A stretch of 15,191 nt of DNA. Source: a virus. Every line of letters starts with the position of its first letter. Position 1 is the stretch's first letter. Positions 953 through 13,700 of the stretch are shown in pieces. Under the pieces are notes generated by a model that saw nothing but the letters and a program-made list of their open reading frames with translations, searched no databases and was not told the origin of the DNA. The stretch lies in IMG/VR virus record IMGVR_UViG_3300050821_002957, positions 1 to 15,191 of that record. One strand, given 5' to 3'. A program made the position numbers and the translations under genes.

Positions 953-996
953 ATACATCTATTGACTTCCAATTTGGAATTTGATAGCATGTATTC
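948..996 (+). promoter_or_regulatory. conserved early-promoter cassette, copy 1
   Basis: Palindrome-like TAGATACATCTA, then -35 TTGACT (962-967), 17-nt spacer, -10 TAGCAT (985-990). ATG at 997 lies 6 nt after the -10, so the mRNA should be leaderless. Confidence 0.6.
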
Positions 997-1446
997 ATGA
1001 GCGAATACACTGAAGCGAAATTAGACGGATCGAAAGTCATCGCCCAATTTGTTCTTGGCGGCAACTCTACCTTCACTGTGGTCTCGAAGCGCACCGGCTC
1101 CAGGCTGACGTTCAAGGTTGGATTTTGGGAAGAACGTAACATGTACATCGTCAAAGTTCTGACCGGCCCGGACAATGAAAACGACTACAGAAAGCTCGGC
1201 AAGATCAAAAACGGCATCTTCTCTTTGACTGATGCGGCTCGGGAGAACGGCTTCACCGTCGAGACTCGTTCCTTCAGCGTATTCTCCTGGCTGCTCCGCA
1301 ATCTCCAGTCCGAAAAGATCGACGATCAAATTGAAATCTGGCACGCTGGTCGCTGTGGCCGTTGCGGACGTAAGCTGACGGTGCCTGAGAGCATCGAGAC
1401 TGGTCTAGGACCGGAATGCGCTGAGAAAGGTTTTGGTGGTTTCTAG
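997..1446 (+). CDS. phage protein with a C-terminal CxxCG...GxGPEC zinc-ribbon motif (DUF6011-like)
   Basis: 149-aa ORF ending ...GRCGRCGRKLTVPESIETGLGPECAEKGFGGF. I recognise the CxxC...S...GxGPxC tail as a common phage C-terminal motif. Directly downstream of promoter copy 1. Confidence 0.6.
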   Translation: MSEYTEAKLDGSKVIAQFVLGGNSTFTVVSKRTGSRLTFKVGFWEERNMYIVKVLTGPDNENDYRKLGKIKNGIFSLTDAARENGFTVETRSFSVFSWLLRNLQSEKIDDQIEIWHAGRCGRCGRKLTVPESIETGLGPECAEKGFGGF

Positions 1447-1493
1447 TAGATACATCTATTGACATTGATCCCGAAACGAGGTACACTTTAATC
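1444..1493 (+). promoter_or_regulatory. conserved early-promoter cassette, copy 2
   Basis: TAGATACATCTA (1447-1458), -35 TTGACA (1459-1464), 17-nt spacer, -10 TACACT (1482-1487), ATG at 1494. Confidence 0.6.
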
Positions 1494-1661
1494 ATGACAA
1501 ACGAAATGATTTGGCAAAACATGACCGACGAACAAAGAAGGGCCGTCCTCGATCAATTCACTATGACTTCCGACATTCCTTCCGACATCAAGTGGGATCA
1601 TCTGGACCACGGAACACGGTCGGCGATCATCTTCACTGGAACGGTCGAGGGAATGAAATGA
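1494..1661 (+). CDS. small hypothetical protein (55 aa, leaderless)
   Basis: ATG 1494 sits 6 nt after the -10. Translation MTNEMIWQNMTDEQRRAVLDQFTMTSDIPSDIKWDHLDHGTRSAIIFTGTVEGMK. Below the ORF-track length cutoff. Confidence 0.45.
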   Translation: MTNEMIWQNMTDEQRRAVLDQFTMTSDIPSDIKWDHLDHGTRSAIIFTGTVEGMK

Positions 1662-1747
1662 TCGTCCTCCTTGCCGTCCTCAAAATTCAGGCTATGTTTT
1701 ACGGTTTGCGTCTGTTATTCTATATCAAGGTGAACCCAAATGACTAA
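1658..1747 (+). CDS. mini hydrophobic peptide (29 aa)
   Basis: ATG overlaps the upstream TGA (ATGA). MIVLLAVLKIQAMFYGLRLLFYIKVNPND is a single predicted TM helix. Weak support. Confidence 0.25.
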   Translation: MIVLLAVLKIQAMFYGLRLLFYIKVNPND

Positions 1748-1979
1748 CCTTCTCATTTCGCTCGGGGCTGCTGTCATGTGGCTTCTTCGGGTCCAAGAGT
1801 TAAAGTCTGCATTGCCGGAAGAATGCACGATGCTTCCGTCTGAGGGCCGCAGCTTCATCAATCTCCAACATTATGACCCGGACACGATCACTCGAATGTC
1901 AAGTGAGAATTATGAAGCTACGCATACTGCGGCTACTCCTGAAGTGGTCGTACTATCTGAAAATCCAACGGCTGAGTAA
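1740..1979 (+). CDS. hypothetical protein (79 aa)
   Basis: ORF overlaps the previous stop and has an N-terminal hydrophobic segment. Confidence 0.4.
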   Translation: MTNLLISLGAAVMWLLRVQELKSALPEECTMLPSEGRSFINLQHYDPDTITRMSSENYEATHTAATPEVVVLSENPTAE

Positions 1980-2048
1980 TTGGCTCTGGCATCGTAAGAT
2001 GGACGAGTTTTATCGGACGGTTCACCATCAGTCCGACTACGGCTGGTA

Positions 2049-2077
2049 ATTCCAAAATCTCATGCTATGATATTGGC
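2049..2077 (+). promoter_or_regulatory. extended -10 promoter (TGCTATGAT) for the downstream membrane protein
   Basis: TGcTATGAT, then 6 nt, then ATG 2078. The -35 is weak. Same leaderless geometry as the cassette family. Confidence 0.35.
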
Positions 2078-2560
2078 ATGAACATTCTAAGAAACGTATT
2101 GTTAGCGATGCTTCTTGTTGTAGGGATCGGATATTTGATTTCGCTGTTGCCTCCTCCACATCCTCGACACCACAAAGTCAAAATAGAAAAACTGAAGAAT
2201 GGCCAGTATGCCTACAAGGACAAGAAAGGCAACTGGTGGTTTTACGCCAAAAAAGTTGCAAAGGCTGGGAGTCAAACCGATTTTGATTTCGACTTTAATT
2301 TCACCGGAGCCGAGTTTGGTAAGTCAGCGAGTGGATCGGTGCGTATGCCTTCGGGCGGTTCATGGGTTCGTGCGTCAAATCCTCCCAAGCCGGAAGAAAT
2401 CGAAGAAGAGATTGAAGTGTCTGTCGAAGAGAGCGTCACAGGCGAACCGGAAGGGGACACTGACGACGGCGCAGATGCCGATTCAAGCGATTCTGGCGGC
2501 GATGGCGGCGACGGCGGGGGAGATGGCGGTGGGGATGGTGGAGGCGACGGCGGCGAGTAA
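2078..2560 (+). CDS. membrane-anchored protein with an acidic Gly/Asp-repeat C-terminal tail
   Basis: N-terminal TM helix (LLAMLLVVGIGYLISLL), central Lys-rich region, then a D/E-rich stretch ending in SGGDGGDGGGDGGGDGGGDGGE. Confidence 0.55.
   Translation: MNILRNVLLAMLLVVGIGYLISLLPPPHPRHHKVKIEKLKNGQYAYKDKKGNWWFYAKKVAKAGSQTDFDFDFNFTGAEFGKSASGSVRMPSGGSWVRASNPPKPEEIEEEIEVSVEESVTGEPEGDTDDGADADSSDSGGDGGDGGGDGGGDGGGDGGE
2492..2557 (+). repeat. in-frame GGC/GAT tandem repeat encoding (G)nD
   Basis: GGCGATGGCGGCGACGGCGGGGGAGATGGCGGTGGGGATGGTGGAGGCGACGGCGGC, an imperfect 9-12 nt periodicity. The PPSPPP-encoding minus-strand ORF (2272-2631) is its mirror image. Confidence 0.6.
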
Positions 2561-12221: not shown

Positions 12222-12232
12222 AAGGAACTTTT

Positions 12233-12604
12233 ATGCCTACCGATCCCATGAATTTGAAAGACTACAGTAAGCAGTATGGTGATCTCGAAATGTTCAAAAA
12301 TTTCGAGCGACCGTACAAACGAATTGGCCTGCCGGTTGAGGCAGCACCAACAATGACCTTCAAATCAGCCTTGACTGCGTACTTGGTCAACAACTGCATG
12401 ATGCCCTCCGACGCCACACAAGTCATGGAAACCGTCATGGCCGACCCCAAAAACGATCATATGAAAGCGCATTGGGATCAACCTGTCACTGGATACCCAC
12501 CGGAACTGTTGACGGGACTTATGCTCACCATGAACGGACACGCCCTGACCTGGATCGACGCCAATTGCCCCGCCGTATTTTACCGGGCGATGTTCGTCAA
12601 TTAA
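12233..12604 (+). CDS. hypothetical protein (123 aa)
   Basis: AAGGA RBS 8 nt upstream. Confidence 0.55.
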   Translation: MPTDPMNLKDYSKQYGDLEMFKNFERPYKRIGLPVEAAPTMTFKSALTAYLVNNCMMPSDATQVMETVMADPKNDHMKAHWDQPVTGYPPELLTGLMLTMNGHALTWIDANCPAVFYRAMFVN

Positions 12605-12606
12605 TT

Positions 12607-12653
12607 TAGATACATCTATTGACATTCAGGTCGGCATCTGGTAGTATTGAGTT
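12607..12653 (+). promoter_or_regulatory. conserved early-promoter cassette, copy 4
   Basis: TAGATACATCTA (12607-12618), -35 TTGACA (12619-12624), 17-nt spacer, TGGTAGTAT extended -10 (12639-12647), ATG 12654. Confidence 0.6.
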
Positions 12654-13238
12654 ATGGAAACGTACAACGTAGCTGACCTGATGGAACAGATGAAATCTGG
12701 CCGTTATCAATATGGCATGGGCAATTCGACTACGAGCATCATCCGTTCGATCACCGAAACGGACGGCAAGTACTTAGTCGTTGGTGACACGTTTGCCTGC
12801 TCTGGTGACGAGAATCTTCAACTTTCGGTCACGCCGATCCTGGTACAATTGAAGCCGATGGTCGAAGATTACTTTTCCGGGGAATGCGCCGCTTTCGAGA
12901 CCCTGGCTGAGGCTCTAAAACACGCCAGTGTCAAACGGATCACTGGACGCATCCTGACGGCCACCGACGAATTCAAATTGAAAGCTGGAGTGGTCGAGAA
13001 AAAGAAGTTCTCGAAGAAACGCCTGGAAGCAGTCCTGGAGCAGAACGGATTCGGAAAGAGCGTAAGCTACGAGGCGTATGGACGTGACGTGCGTGCTTTC
13101 ATCGGAACTGACAAACGGACGCAACTGGAAGCGTTTCTGCGCCTTCTGGGGCAGTCTGTAGACGAGTCCTACGCTCCTGGTCGCAACGTCGTCGAGTGCA
13201 AAGTGACTTTCTTCAAGGCATGGCACTGGGATGAGTAG
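12654..13238 (+). CDS. hypothetical protein (194 aa)
   Basis: Leaderless ORF. No motif recognised. Confidence 0.55.
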   Translation: METYNVADLMEQMKSGRYQYGMGNSTTSIIRSITETDGKYLVVGDTFACSGDENLQLSVTPILVQLKPMVEDYFSGECAAFETLAEALKHASVKRITGRILTATDEFKLKAGVVEKKKFSKKRLEAVLEQNGFGKSVSYEAYGRDVRAFIGTDKRTQLEAFLRLLGQSVDESYAPGRNVVECKVTFFKAWHWDE

Positions 13239-13396
13239 ATCCGAACTGCGCCGGATGTCAATGGCGAAACTGATCGATCTCGCACAGGAAAATGAAATCT
13301 TCGTCTGGTTCGATGCCCACCGGGAAGGCATTTTGGAAGCGCTGGTGGACAAGCTGGTCGAAGAAAAAAGTGACGTTTGGTGTGCATATTTTTAGA
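13231..13396 (+). CDS. small hypothetical protein (54 aa)
   Basis: ATG 13231 overlaps the end of the previous gene by 8 nt. MSRSELRRMSMAKLIDLAQENEIFVWFDAHREGILEALVDKLVEEKSDVWCAYF. Its stop TAG is the first triplet of the next palindrome. Confidence 0.35.
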
Positions 13397-13439
13397 TGCA
13401 TCTATTGACTTTGGGGCCGATCTGCGGTAGACTTTAAGT
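13393..13439 (+). promoter_or_regulatory. conserved early-promoter cassette, copy 5 (perfect palindrome)
   Basis: TAGATGCATCTA (13393-13404), -35 TTGACT (13405-13410), 17-nt spacer, -10 TAGACT (13428-13433), ATG 13440. Confidence 0.6.
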
Positions 13440-13700
13440 ATGAAAGCGATCAACACTTGGAAGATGGCAAACGGACAGACCGCAGAATTGCTTGGCGTTT
13501 GGGAAGAGAAACAATCATGGGGCGCTACTTGGAAGATGAACCTAGAGCGCTACAAGAGTACCAAAACCGAACGCACTTTACGGTACTTGATTTGCCACGA
13601 AGGTGGTCAATCGTATCTGGTGGGTGAATACAAATCTCTCAAAGCTGCATTGAAAGACATGGCTTCGTTTTCCAACTACACAAAGAAAGTGACGGCATAA
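13440..13700 (+). CDS. hypothetical protein (86 aa)
   Basis: Leaderless ORF downstream of cassette 5. Confidence 0.5.
   Translation: MKAINTWKMANGQTAELLGVWEEKQSWGATWKMNLERYKSTKTERTLRYLICHEGGQSYLVGEYKSLKAALKDMASFSNYTKKVTA

What the first reader, a model, noticed from the sequence alone, without database searches (positions are those of the whole stretch)
985..13442. Systematic leaderless architecture: the start codon sits at the predicted transcription start site
In every cassette the ATG begins 6-7 nt after the -10 hexamer (TAGCAT-gtattc-ATG, TACACT-ttaatc-ATG, TAATCT-ttaagt-ATG, TAGTAT-tgagtt-ATG, TAGACT-ttaagt-ATG, TACAGT-gtgattc-ATG, TAAACT-gtttcc-ATG, TAGGAT-aggtc-ATG, TATGAT-attggc-ATG). 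That leaves no room for a 5' UTR or Shine-Dalgarno, so these mRNAs should begin at or 1 nt before the A of AUG. The same logic holds at 9362-9377, where an extended -10 places the TSS on nucleotide +1 of tRNA-Arg(CCU), so no RNase P step is needed. Internal genes of the same operons do use ordinary GAGGA/AAGGA RBSs. Leaderless initiation as a genome-wide design rule for a phage early class is unusual. It would make early translation independent of SD-anti-SD pairing.
Basis: partly seen in the sequence, partly recalled or inferred. Interest (0 to 1): 0.55.

Follow-up and report, generated by a model that had tools for sequence, protein, structure and literature searches.

The report
Phage promoters that start at ATG
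In this uncultured giant T4-like phage and its relatives, most host-type promoters sit exactly 6 bases upstream of an ATG, so the mRNA should begin with the start codon itself. Leaderless expression is already known in other bacteria and phages, but here it is used as the standard rule.

Summary
All nine -10/spacer/ATG strings are at the stated coordinates. The window's + strand has 8 full sigma70-type promoters with an ATG 5-7 nt after the -10, against 0.03 expected from shuffles.

The pattern holds across the clade. In 44 related loci, 85 of 148 promoter-like sites have ATG exactly 6 nt after TAnnnT. None has GTG or TTG there. In the first 39 of these loci, position -1 is a pyrimidine in 65 of 65 such sites. 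In 75 of 77 cases the ATG opens an ORF of at least 40 codons. Unrelated control loci give 4 of 155.

Loci retrieved through proteins, not through the promoter motif, show the same pattern (19 of 37). NADAR orthologues with different N-termini keep the promoter-to-ATG geometry.

The phage belongs to the T4 superfamily (gp23 and gp32 in relatives) and comes from contigs of 370-405 kb. The host is unknown.

The best explanation is that host RNA polymerase starts at the A of AUG, 70S ribosomes translate the first cistron without a Shine-Dalgarno site, and downstream cistrons use SD or coupling. No transcription start data exist.

The tRNA-Arg(CCU) geometry recurs in one of three relatives. About 80% of the 64 such sites aligned with their upstream flank carry a 12-bp dyad centred at -41.5, which may be an operator.

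Precedents exist: phiYS40, Cluster O mycobacteriophages, lambda cI and Deinococcus. I rate this a new variant of a known kind, of moderate interest.

The parts
950..999 (+). Cassette 1: dyad TAGATACATCTA (950-961; its TAG is the stop codon of ORF 725-952), -35 TTGACT (962-967), TGa + -10 TAGCAT (982-990), 6 nt, ATG 997. Drives the DUF6011 gene 997-1446.
   Evidence: Pfam DUF6011. phrog_20259 aligns from residue 7.
1447..1496 (+). Cassette 2: dyad 1447-1458, -35 TTGACA 1459-1464, -10 TACACT 1482-1487, 6 nt, ATG 1494. Gene 1494-1661, followed by the coupled small ORFs 1658-1747 and 1740-1979.
2063..2080 (+). Promoter with only an extended -10: TGcTATGAT (2063-2071), 6 nt, ATG 2078. Gene 2078-2560. 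There is no good -35.
2561..2596 (+). Promoter that directly follows the stop codon of the previous gene: -35 TTGACG 2561-2566, 16-nt spacer, TGg + TAGGAT 2583-2588, 5 nt, ATG 2594. NADAR gene 2594-3112. The same promoter with 6-nt spacing precedes the NADAR orthologues in L043 and L037, although their N-termini are 12-13 residues longer.
9497..9534 (+). -35 TTGACC 9497-9502, 17 nt, TGc + TAAACT 9520-9525, 6 nt, ATG 9532. Operon 9532-9987 / 9984-10478 / 10475-10666.
10664..10714 (+). Degenerate dyad TAGACGTATCAA (10664-10675; its TAG is the stop codon of ORF 10475-10666), -35 TTGACA 10676-10681, TGc + TACAGT 10699-10704, 7 nt, ATG 10712. Gene 10712-11086.
11088..11137 (+). Cassette: perfect palindrome TAGATGCATCTA 11088-11099, -35 TTGACT 11100-11105, TGg + TAATCT 11123-11128, 6 nt, ATG 11135. 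Operon 11135-11335, 11348-11719, 11719-11982, 11982-12221, 12233-12604. The internal genes have AAGGA/GAGGA sites or overlap their neighbours.
12607..12656 (+). Cassette: dyad 12607-12618, -35 TTGACA 12619-12624, TGg + TAGTAT 12642-12647, 6 nt, ATG 12654. Genes 12654-13238 and 13231-13395.
13393..13442 (+). Cassette: palindrome TAGATGCATCTA 13393-13404 (its TAG is the stop codon of ORF 13231-13395), -35 TTGACT 13405-13410, -10 TAGACT 13428-13433, 6 nt, ATG 13440. Genes 13440-13700 and downstream. The orthologue in L105 also starts at a cassette ATG.
9362..9452 (+). Extended -10 TGaTATACT (9362-9370), 6 nt, then G9377, which is position +1 of tRNA-Arg(CCT) (9377-9452). This is a candidate primary transcript whose 5' end is already mature.
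   Evidence: The same geometry occurs in L173 (TGgTATGAT-gaatgt|G10520) but not in L043 or L172.
6820..6973 (+). Contrast case. Sigma70-like promoter TTGACA-16-TAAAAT (6820-6847) with a 15-nt leader containing AAGGG, before a 36-codon ORF (6863-6973).
7048..7291 (+). Contrast case. Promoter TTGACA-16-TGgTATTCT (7048-7075) drives about 210 nt of leader RNA and then the tRNA array, which starts at 7292.
5637..5999 (+). Conserved 120-aa protein that resembles the CopG/Arc/MetJ (ribbon-helix-helix) family. It is a candidate binder of the TAGATnnATCTA dyad. Its own gene has a leader: a conserved TGnTATATAC, a hairpin with compensatory changes, and an AGAGGAA SD at about 5570-5636.
   Evidence: The fold assignment is inconclusive.

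Best explanation
These are promoters for the host sigma70-type RNA polymerase in an early-gene region of an uncultured T4-superfamily phage with a genome of roughly 400 kb.

The full cassette has these elements:
- an A-tract at about -55 to -49
- a 12-bp dyad, TAGATRCATCTA, at -47 to -36 (centre -41.5)
- a -35 element, TTGACW
- a 17-18 nt spacer ending in TGn
- a -10 element, TAnnnT
- five bases, then a pyrimidine
- ATG

With 6 nt between the -10 and the A, the A of ATG lies at the position the polymerase prefers to start from. The mRNA should therefore begin 5'-pppAUG.

The first cistron is then translated as a leaderless mRNA. A 70S ribosome with fMet-tRNA binds the 5'-terminal AUG, and no SD pairing is needed. 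Downstream cistrons in the same unit use AGGA/GAGG sites or stop-start coupling.

The promoter fills the whole 33-49 nt gap after the previous gene's stop codon. A read-through transcript therefore presents the ATG without an SD. The gene's own promoter in effect serves as its ribosome-entry signal.

The dyad probably gives the cassettes shared control by a dimeric regulator. A candidate is the clade-specific, conserved RHH-like protein encoded at 5637-5999.

What is shown: the sequence architecture, its statistics, its conservation across divergent genomes, and that the ATGs are genuine start codons.

What is inferred: the exact start site, the 70S mode of initiation, early timing, and the role of the dyad.
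For: Window: 8 promoters with ATG 5-7 nt after the -10, against 0.03 in shuffles. All are first-in-ORF ATGs.

Clade, motif-seeded scans: of 48 dyad-bearing sites with a -10, 33 have ATG at exactly 6 nt and 2 at 7 nt.

Pooled over 44 loci: 85 of 148 promoter-like sites have ATG at 6 nt and 0 have GTG or TTG. In 75 of 77 complete cases the ORF is at least 40 codons, with a median of 105. Unrelated loci give 4 of 155.

Among the first 39 family loci, position -1 is a pyrimidine in 65 of 65 sites and TG precedes the -10 in 53 of 65.

Loci retrieved through proteins, independent of the promoter motif: L172 has 4 of 6, L173 has 9 of 15 (plus 2 at 7 nt), L177 has 4 of 13, and L178 has 2 of 3.

NADAR orthologues keep promoter-N5/6-ATG although their N-termini differ in length by 12-13 residues. 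DUF6011 and 13440-family orthologues in other contigs also start at cassette ATGs.

No downstream in-frame start has an SD, and cassette ATGs lack an SD.

Upstream stop codons abut or overlap the cassettes, and terminator-like sites are not enriched.

The T4-superfamily context comes from gp23 in L172 and gp32 in L090. Contigs of 404,282 and 405,631 bp carry the same genes.

Leaderless translation is known to depend on a 5'-terminal AUG, zero leader length and start-codon accessibility (PMC8459731). A -10 element adjacent to ORFs is an experimentally validated leaderless mode in Deinococcus (PMC12340547).
Against: - No 5'-end mapping exists for this phage or any relative. The start site could be at -1 or +2 in some cassettes, especially the 5-nt (2594) and 7-nt (10712) spacings.
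- The host is unknown, so its competence for leaderless translation is unknown.
- There are no convincing terminators upstream of the cassettes, so the same ATGs also sit inside read-through transcripts.
- The 5' ends of the predicted mRNAs are not less structured than the starts of internal genes.
- A at +4 is equally common at internal starts, by manual count.
- A minority of cassettes in relatives have leaders with an SD (L090, L141, L148). The design is therefore a majority rule, not an absolute one.
- The RHH fold and its link to the dyad are not established.
Confidence: 0.75

Rival explanations
1. The cassettes are promoters, but transcription starts 1-3 nt away from the A. These genes are then made from very short-leadered or 5'-truncated RNAs, or mainly from read-through polycistronic RNAs by re-initiation or 70S scanning. 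On this view the promoter sits next to the ATG only because the genome is compact.
For: Stop codons abut the cassettes and no strong terminators precede them. Spacings of 5 and 7 nt also occur. Many internal genes are coupled without a clear SD.
Against: Compaction alone would not fix the spacing at exactly 6 nt in 85 of 148 sites. It would not force a pyrimidine at -1 in 65 of 65 sites, exclude GTG and TTG, or keep the geometry when the N-terminus changes. Where the clade does use a leader, it inserts an obvious AGGA (window 6820; the RHH gene).
Confidence: 0.12
2. The repeated cassette is mainly a recombination module, like the T4 promoter-early-stem-loop (PeSL) elements. On this view it shuffles ORFan genes between phages, and the ATG is carried along with the repeat.
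For: A stretch of about 30 nt is nearly identical in five copies. The cassettes flank small ORFan genes. The window and the 99.96%-identical strain L170 differ by swapped upstream modules.
Against: The window/L170 breakpoint lies inside the DUF6011 gene (about 1353), not at a cassette. Of the 65 sites with 6-nt spacing, 31 lack the exact repeat but keep the -35/-10/ATG geometry. Spacer sequences differ freely while the functional positions are conserved. This role would not exclude the promoter or leaderless function.
Confidence: 0.06
3. The matches are chance sigma70-like sequences near start codons, or an artefact of repeat copies.
For: The generic promoter scan is only mildly enriched: 22 sites against 16.8 expected.
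Against: 8 observed against 0.03 expected. The pattern is strand-specific. It is reproduced in dozens of independent contigs with divergent sequence.
Confidence: 0.01

Closest known systems
Leaderless transcription units of Deinococcus-Thermus and Actinobacteria (-10 TANNNT a few bp upstream of the ORF)
   Same: [quoted passage not shown]
   Different: Here the promoters have strong -35 TTGACA and TGn elements and use only AUG. They belong to a virus with 47% G+C whose host is unknown. They carry an extra conserved dyad and A-tract.
Thermus phage phiYS40 middle/late leaderless transcripts
   Same: A large phage in which a whole temporal class of mRNAs lacks leaders. The phage appears to bias host initiation factors toward leaderless translation (reviewed in PMC3594737; Sevostyanova et al. 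2007, cited there and in PMC12340547).
   Different: In phiYS40 it is the middle/late class. From my own knowledge, those promoters lack a -35, and the host phylum uses leaderless mRNAs routinely. Here the promoters are canonical sigma70-type, presumably early, in a T4-superfamily phage.
Cluster O mycobacteriophage SigA-like promoters
   Same: [quoted passage not shown] The genomes also carry a repeated dyad-symmetric motif (PMC4351075).
   Different: Only 3 of 8-9 promoters per genome are of this type. The 17-bp dyad is dispersed through the genome rather than fused to the promoter. The host is an actinobacterium.
Lambda cI mRNA from PRM
   Same: This is the classic phage leaderless mRNA, with a 5'-terminal AUG bound by ribosomes (Shean & Gottesman 1992 and Brock et al. 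2008, as cited in PMC12340547 and PMC5312081).
   Different: It is a single regulatory gene, not a general design for many transcription units.
T4 early promoters and PeSL cassettes
   Same: Strong, extended sigma70-type promoters with A-rich upstream elements, repeated in front of small early ORFan genes in a T4-type genome that also carries tRNA arrays and homing endonucleases (my own knowledge; PMC2988021 covers T4 early promoters).
   Different: T4 early mRNAs have leaders with SD sites (my own knowledge). A strict-motif scan of 50 kb of T4 and 50 kb of Caulobacter phage Cr30 found no site with ATG at 6 nt.
Leaderless tRNA genes of Nanoarchaeum equitans (for the tRNA-Arg part)
   Same: The promoter is placed so that transcription starts at tRNA position +1, which makes RNase P 5' processing unnecessary (my own knowledge: Randau et al. 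2008).
   Different: Here it applies to 1 of 9 tRNAs in the window and to 2 of 4 orthologues. The other tRNAs clearly have leaders or sit inside arrays. The host presumably has RNase P.

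Membership tests
Sigma70-type (group 1 sigma) promoter | A -35 hexamer close to TTGACA | tested here: met
   TTGACN is present in 8 of the 9 window cassettes and was used as the anchor in the clade scans. The 2078 promoter lacks it.
Sigma70-type (group 1 sigma) promoter | A 17 +/- 1 bp spacer and a -10 TAnnnT, often with an extended TGn | tested here: met
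   Spacers are 16-18 bp. TG precedes the -10 in 53 of 65 sites.
Sigma70-type (group 1 sigma) promoter | Transcription by the host holoenzyme from the predicted +1 | not testable with these tools
   This needs in vitro transcription or 5'-end mapping.
Leaderless mRNA transcription unit | The -10 element is positioned so that +1 falls on the first base of the start codon (6-7 nt between them) | tested here: met
   In the window the spacing is 6 nt in 7 cassettes, 5 nt in 1 and 7 nt in 1. Across the clade, 85 of 148 sites have 6 nt. Y at -1 and A at +1 hold in 65 of 65 sites.
Leaderless mRNA transcription unit | The start codon is AUG (strongly preferred for leaderless initiation), with no SD upstream | tested here: met
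   Only ATG occurs at 6 nt, with 0 GTG or TTG. The upstream bases are promoter sequence without AGGAGG-like pairing, except where it overlaps the -10 by coincidence.
Leaderless mRNA transcription unit | The mapped 5' end of the mRNA coincides with the start codon, and translation depends on the 5'-terminal AUG | not testable with these tools
   No transcriptome or proteome data exist for this uncultured phage.
T4 superfamily (Straboviridae-like myoviruses) | T4 core genes such as gp23 (major capsid) and gp32 (ssDNA-binding protein) | tested here: met
   Neither gene is in the window itself. L172 shares the window's YqeY, RF1-like, NADAR and HD genes and carries Gp23 (PF07068). That gp23 is 60-64% identical to those of Pelagibacter, Methylophilales, cyanobacterial and Stenotrophomonas T4-like phages. 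L090 shares the cassette and carries gp32.
T4 superfamily (Straboviridae-like myoviruses) | A late sigma factor (gp55) and TATAAATA late promoters | tested here: inconclusive
   There is one TATAAATA (7157-7164), conserved in L043 and L173. ORF 5248-5586 hits the gp55 family phrog_234 only at E = 1e-4, and BLASTP against T4 gp55 does not confirm it.
Operator-controlled promoter with a ribbon-helix-helix repressor (P22 Arc/Mnt type) | A dyad-symmetric operator overlapping or abutting the promoter | tested here: met
   TAGATRCATCTA lies directly upstream of the -35 in 5 window cassettes and, with up to 3 mismatches, in 49 of 64 clade sites with ATG at 6 nt.
Operator-controlled promoter with a ribbon-helix-helix repressor (P22 Arc/Mnt type) | A phage-encoded RHH-fold DNA-binding protein | tested here: inconclusive
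   For the protein at 5637-5999, Pfam RHH_1 scores E = 0.0075, below the family cut-off. The NikR RHH domain matches at E = 0.48. JGI labels it CopG/Arc/MetJ. The AlphaFold2 model shows a strand-helix-helix pattern with pLDDT 83. Foldseek found no significant match.
Operator-controlled promoter with a ribbon-helix-helix repressor (P22 Arc/Mnt type) | Specific binding of the protein to the dyad, with repression | not testable with these tools
   This needs EMSA or footprinting and reporter assays.
Leaderless (5'-mature) tRNA primary transcript | The promoter places +1 on tRNA nucleotide 1 | tested here: met
   The geometry holds in the window (TGaTATACT-6 nt-G9377) and in L173 (TGgTATGAT-6 nt-G10520). 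These are the only 2 of 52 clade tRNAs with an extended -10 at -15, and both are tRNA-Arg(CCT). It is absent in L043 and L172.
Leaderless (5'-mature) tRNA primary transcript | The tRNA carries a 5'-triphosphate and functions without RNase P cleavage | not testable with these tools
   This needs RNA 5'-end chemistry.

The most novel reading that the evidence does not exclude
A clade of T4-superfamily phages with genomes of 370-405 kb has made 'transcription start = translation start' the default for its host-polymerase (early) transcription units, covering at least half of all such promoters. The units use a fixed, compact cassette whose -41.5 dyad lets one conserved phage RHH-type regulator switch the whole class. 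The phage applies the same geometry to a tRNA, so that its primary transcript needs no RNase P. Together with the phage-encoded tRNAs and the frameshift-controlled RF1-like factor in the same region, this would point to a takeover strategy that moves the infected cell toward SD-independent 70S initiation on phage mRNAs.
Probability: 0.3. Interest if true: 0.7.

Novelty: new variant of a known kind. Interest (0 to 1): 0.5.

Why it matters
If 5'-end mapping confirms it, this would be the clearest case outside Actinobacteria and Deinococcus-Thermus of a virus using leaderless initiation as its standard way to express early genes. It occurs in the T4 superfamily, where the model phage uses leaders with SD sites.

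It has three practical or conceptual uses:
- It provides a natural 47-50 nt 'promoter plus start codon' expression cassette with many sequence variants. This could be useful for synthetic biology and for studying what makes leaderless mRNAs efficient.
- Gene callers and promoter predictors for large uncultured phages should model a -10 box in place of an RBS.
- It raises a testable idea: such phages gain selective translation if they disturb SD-dependent initiation in the host.

The tRNA case would be a rare bacterial-virus example of a tRNA that does not need RNase P for 5' maturation.

Tried and rejected
- Megablast of the whole window against INPHARED phages gave no match, so there is no annotated close relative.
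- A scan of GTDB genome contigs with the cassette 19-mer gave 31 hits. All are single chance matches without the -10/ATG architecture. No prophage or host clue came from this, and the host remains unknown.
- The look-up of encoding contigs for the 194-aa protein at 12654-13238 found nothing on record. tblastn of the same protein against phages gave no match.
- I tested whether leaderless 5' ends are less structured or more A-rich than internal gene starts. There is no difference in MFE or base composition. A at +4 is about 63% in both classes (and a manual count). These features give no support either way.
- An Rfam search of 6990-7300 at E <= 1 found nothing. The '210-nt leader RNA' is not a known RNA family. 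It contains a conserved micro-ORF instead.
- I considered the idea that 5063-5251 plus 5248-5586 is a split gp55 late sigma factor. The PHROG hit is weak and BLASTP against T4 gp55 is not significant. I did not adopt it.
- Controls on T4 and Cr30 (50 kb each) with the strict TTGAC motif found few promoters and none with ATG at 6 nt. The strict motif under-detects T4 early promoters, so this is only a weak negative control.
- The palindrome cannot act as an intrinsic terminator. It could form only a 4-bp A/U-rich stem with no T-run, as the sequence shows directly.

Full report
**What is in the window**

The 15,191-bp window has 46.9% G+C. It is a densely packed region that reads almost entirely on one strand. 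It holds small ORFan genes, nine tRNA genes, a GIY-YIG and an HNH homing endonuclease, and NADAR, HD, YqeY and RF-1 domain proteins. It has no close match among deposited phage genomes.

Exact protein look-ups place it on contigs of 404,282 bp (ENA) and 405,631 bp (JGI). Locus L170, from the 404-kb contig, is 99.96% identical to window 1353-13112 but carries different gene modules upstream of that.

Relatives that share the window's genes or its promoter cassette carry T4 gp23 (L172) and gp32 (L090). The gp23 is 60-64% identical to those of T4-like phages of Pelagibacter, Methylophilales, cyanobacteria and Stenotrophomonas. The gp32 is about 46% identical to that of Caulobacter phage Cr30 and of cyanophages. 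The element is therefore an early-type region of an uncultured T4-superfamily phage with an unusually large genome. The host could not be identified.

**Checking the observation**

Five are copies, in exact register, of one cassette: TAGATRCATCTA-TTGACW-17 nt-TAnnnT-6 nt-ATG.

On the + strand there are 12 sites of the form TTGACN-16..18-TAnnnT. Eight are followed by an ATG at 5-7 nt that opens an ORF of 55-194 codons. The minus strand has none. One thousand dinucleotide-preserving shuffles give a mean of 0.03 such sites and a maximum of 1.

Each ATG is the first possible start codon of its ORF. No downstream in-frame start within 40 codons has a credible SD. PHROG profiles for the DUF6011 and NADAR proteins align from residues 7 and 11.

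The upstream stop codon abuts or overlaps the cassette in every case. For example, TAG 950-952 and TAG 13393-13395 are the first three bases of the dyad, and TAA 2558-2560 directly precedes the -35. The 33-49 nt intergenic gaps are therefore entirely promoter.

Three points need correcting:
- Three promoters in the span are not of this type: 6820, 7048 and 8345.
- The promoter at 2078 has only an extended -10.
- Only about half of the internal genes have a clear AGGA/GAGG site. The rest overlap or abut the preceding gene.

**Is the pattern selected?**

I scanned public viral and metagenome contigs for the dyad plus -35 only, so the downstream sequence was not selected for. This gave 108 unique sites. 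Of the 48 that have a TAnnnT at 16-18 nt, 33 have ATG exactly 6 nt after it and 2 have it at 7 nt. Chance would give about 1 in 64 per site.

Pooling 44 related loci gives 148 unique promoter-like sites:
- 85 have ATG at exactly 6 nt, and none has GTG or TTG there.
- 75 of 77 complete ORFs from these ATGs are at least 40 codons long, with a median of 105.

In unrelated loci fetched by the same scans, 4 of 155 sites have ATG at 6 nt. In the first 39 family loci, the base before the A is C or T in 65 of 65 cases and TG precedes the -10 in 53 of 65. Of those 65 sites, 31 lack the exact dyad.

Four loci were retrieved through proteins (RF1-like or the 120-aa regulator-like protein), so they are independent of the promoter motif. 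They show the same pattern in 19 of 37 sites.

The NADAR orthologues of L043 and L037 have N-termini 12-13 residues longer than the window's, yet each begins 6 nt (5 nt in the window) after TTGACG-16-TGgTAnnnT. DUF6011 orthologues and an orthologue of the 13440 gene also start at cassette ATGs in other contigs. The geometry is therefore under selection, not inherited by accident.

**How it most likely works**

A fixed 6-nt gap puts the A of ATG at the seventh base after the -10. That is the preferred start position of bacterial RNA polymerase. The invariant pyrimidine-purine step at -1/+1 is its known start-site preference (both from my own knowledge of E. coli start-site studies). The mRNAs should therefore begin with pppAUG and be translated as leaderless mRNAs.

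This mode requires a 5'-terminal AUG and essentially zero leader (PMC8459731). The exclusive use of ATG and the rigid spacing fit that requirement. Downstream cistrons use SD sites or coupling.

No terminators precede the cassettes, so the same ATGs also occur inside read-through RNAs, where they lack an SD. This suggests that each gene depends on its own promoter for efficient translation. That step, the early timing (by analogy with T4) and the exact start site are inferences. Nothing here replaces 5'-end mapping.

Where the clade wants a leader, it writes an obvious one:
- window 6820
- the conserved regulator-like gene, with TGnTATATAC, a hairpin with compensatory changes and AGAGGAA
- a minority of cassettes in relatives, of the form TAGACT-taaagaGTAGA...AGGA...ATG

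**The dyad**

The sequence TAGATRCATCTA is a perfect palindrome when R = G. It occupies -47 to -36, centred at -41.5, and is preceded by an A-tract. With up to 3 mismatches it is present in 49 of the 64 sites with ATG at 6 nt for which the upstream flank could be aligned.

A 120-aa protein (5637-5999) is the most conserved gene of the region. It is 57-100% identical across 62 clusters, and its listed contigs include the very large contigs of this clade (405,631, 374,748 and 370,131 bp). JGI labels it CopG/Arc/MetJ. The evidence for that fold is as follows:
- Pfam RHH_1 scores only E = 0.0075.
- The AlphaFold2 model has a strand-helix-helix N-terminus and a helical hairpin, with pLDDT 83.
- Foldseek gave no significant match.

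It is a reasonable candidate for a common repressor of the cassettes, as Arc is for P22 Pant (my own knowledge). This is not shown.

**The tRNA**

TGaTATACT ends 6 nt before G9377, which is position +1 of tRNA-Arg(CCT). Among 52 tRNA genes in clade loci, only two have an extended -10 at that position. Both are tRNA-Arg(CCT), one in the window and one in L173, and their flanking sequences are otherwise unrelated. L043 and L172 lack it. The geometry is non-random, but it is a minority solution. Whether RNase P is bypassed cannot be told from sequence.

**Comparison with what is known**

Leaderless expression from a -10 next to the ORF is an established mode in Deinococcus-Thermus and Actinobacteria (PMC12340547, PMC4007540, PMC4633059). 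In phages it has been mapped for phiYS40 middle/late genes (PMC3594737), predicted for three promoters of Cluster O mycobacteriophages (PMC4351075), and is classic for lambda cI. phiKZ has no leaderless transcripts (PMC8244752).

I found no report of it for T4-like phages. Strict-motif scans of 50 kb of Cr30 and 50 kb of T4 found none, although this is a weak control.

The finding is therefore a new variant of a known kind. It combines canonical, strong sigma70-type promoters, a T4-superfamily giant phage, majority use across the clade, a fused dyad element and an extension to a tRNA.

**Verdict**

It is not unprecedented. Interest is moderate, at 0.5.

Noticed in passing
window 8493-9156 (shift site 8586-8601); L172 7351-8014; L173 9841-10504: An RF1-like release-factor gene that lacks domain 1 is interrupted by a prfB-type +1 frameshift signal, CGG AGG GGT CTT TGA G. 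The joined 220-aa product aligns without a break to RF1 residues 89-312 (E = 8e-48; RF2 only about 1e-27). It has a PPT (PxT-type) motif and GGQ. The same shift site is conserved in relatives at 78% and 66% protein identity, while many metagenomic homologues are uninterrupted at about 220 aa. I am not aware of an RF2-style UGA frameshift sensor in front of an RF1-type factor having been described.
   Followed up: partly
window 7157-7230; L173 about 8260-8330; L043 (minus strand) about 4700-4800: A conserved micro-ORF of 15-16 codons, rich in Arg and Lys, sits 17-20 nt after a T4-late-type TATAAATA. The peptides are MRRITITRREVKRKR, MTRITITRREIKRKR and MTRTRRITIRRDKRKR. The micro-ORF lies inside the roughly 210-nt leader transcribed from the sigma70-like promoter at 7048, upstream of the tRNA array. 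Codon changes between genomes are largely synonymous. There is no Rfam match.
   Followed up: partly
window 5570-5636 and orthologous regions of L043, L172, L173, L177: Upstream of the conserved 120-aa RHH-like gene there is a conserved TGnTATATAC element. It is followed by a hairpin with compensatory changes (GAAGTCGAA/TTCGAC against GAAGTCCA/TGGAC) and an AGAGGAA SD. This is a different, leadered promoter class in the same phages.
   Followed up: partly
whole window; ENA ERZ27253678 k141_5803278; JGI contig carrying P0001/P0121: The same genes lie on contigs of 404,282 and 405,631 bp. Relatives lie on contigs of 370,131 and 374,748 bp. If these are single genomes, they are exceptionally large for the T4 superfamily.
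   Followed up: partly
window 1-1352 versus L170 1-8759: The window and a 99.96%-identical strain diverge completely upstream of about position 1353, which lies inside the DUF6011 gene. Early ORFan modules have been swapped between them.
   Followed up: partly
window 3664-3756; also L043, L172, L173, L177, L178: ARAGORN calls a 91-94-nt 'tRNA-Ile(TAT)' next to the HD-domain gene in every relative. Rfam's tRNA model does not reach its gathering score there. It may be a tRNA with an intron or long arm, or a tRNA-like element.
   Followed up: no
L090, L141, L148 (relatives): A sub-class of the same dyad cassettes has leaders: TAGACT-taaagaGTAGA(c/g)AA..AGGA..ATG, with a conserved initial transcribed sequence and an SD.
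   Followed up: partly
window 5063-5586: ORF 5248-5586 gives a weak match to the T4 gp55 late-sigma family (phrog_234, E = 1e-4). It overlaps the preceding 62-codon ORF by ATGA. Together the two ORFs would be about gp55 length. BLASTP against T4 gp55 is not significant.
   Followed up: partly
window 6027-6662 (+) and 7484-7999 (-): There is a GIY-YIG/NUMOD3 homing endonuclease, and an HNH endonuclease that is the only convincing minus-strand gene. The HNH gene is inserted in the middle of the tRNA array.
   Followed up: no
window 2485-2553: The cassette-driven gene 2078-2560 ends in tandem 9-nt repeats that encode (GGD)n after an N-terminal hydrophobic segment.
   Followed up: no
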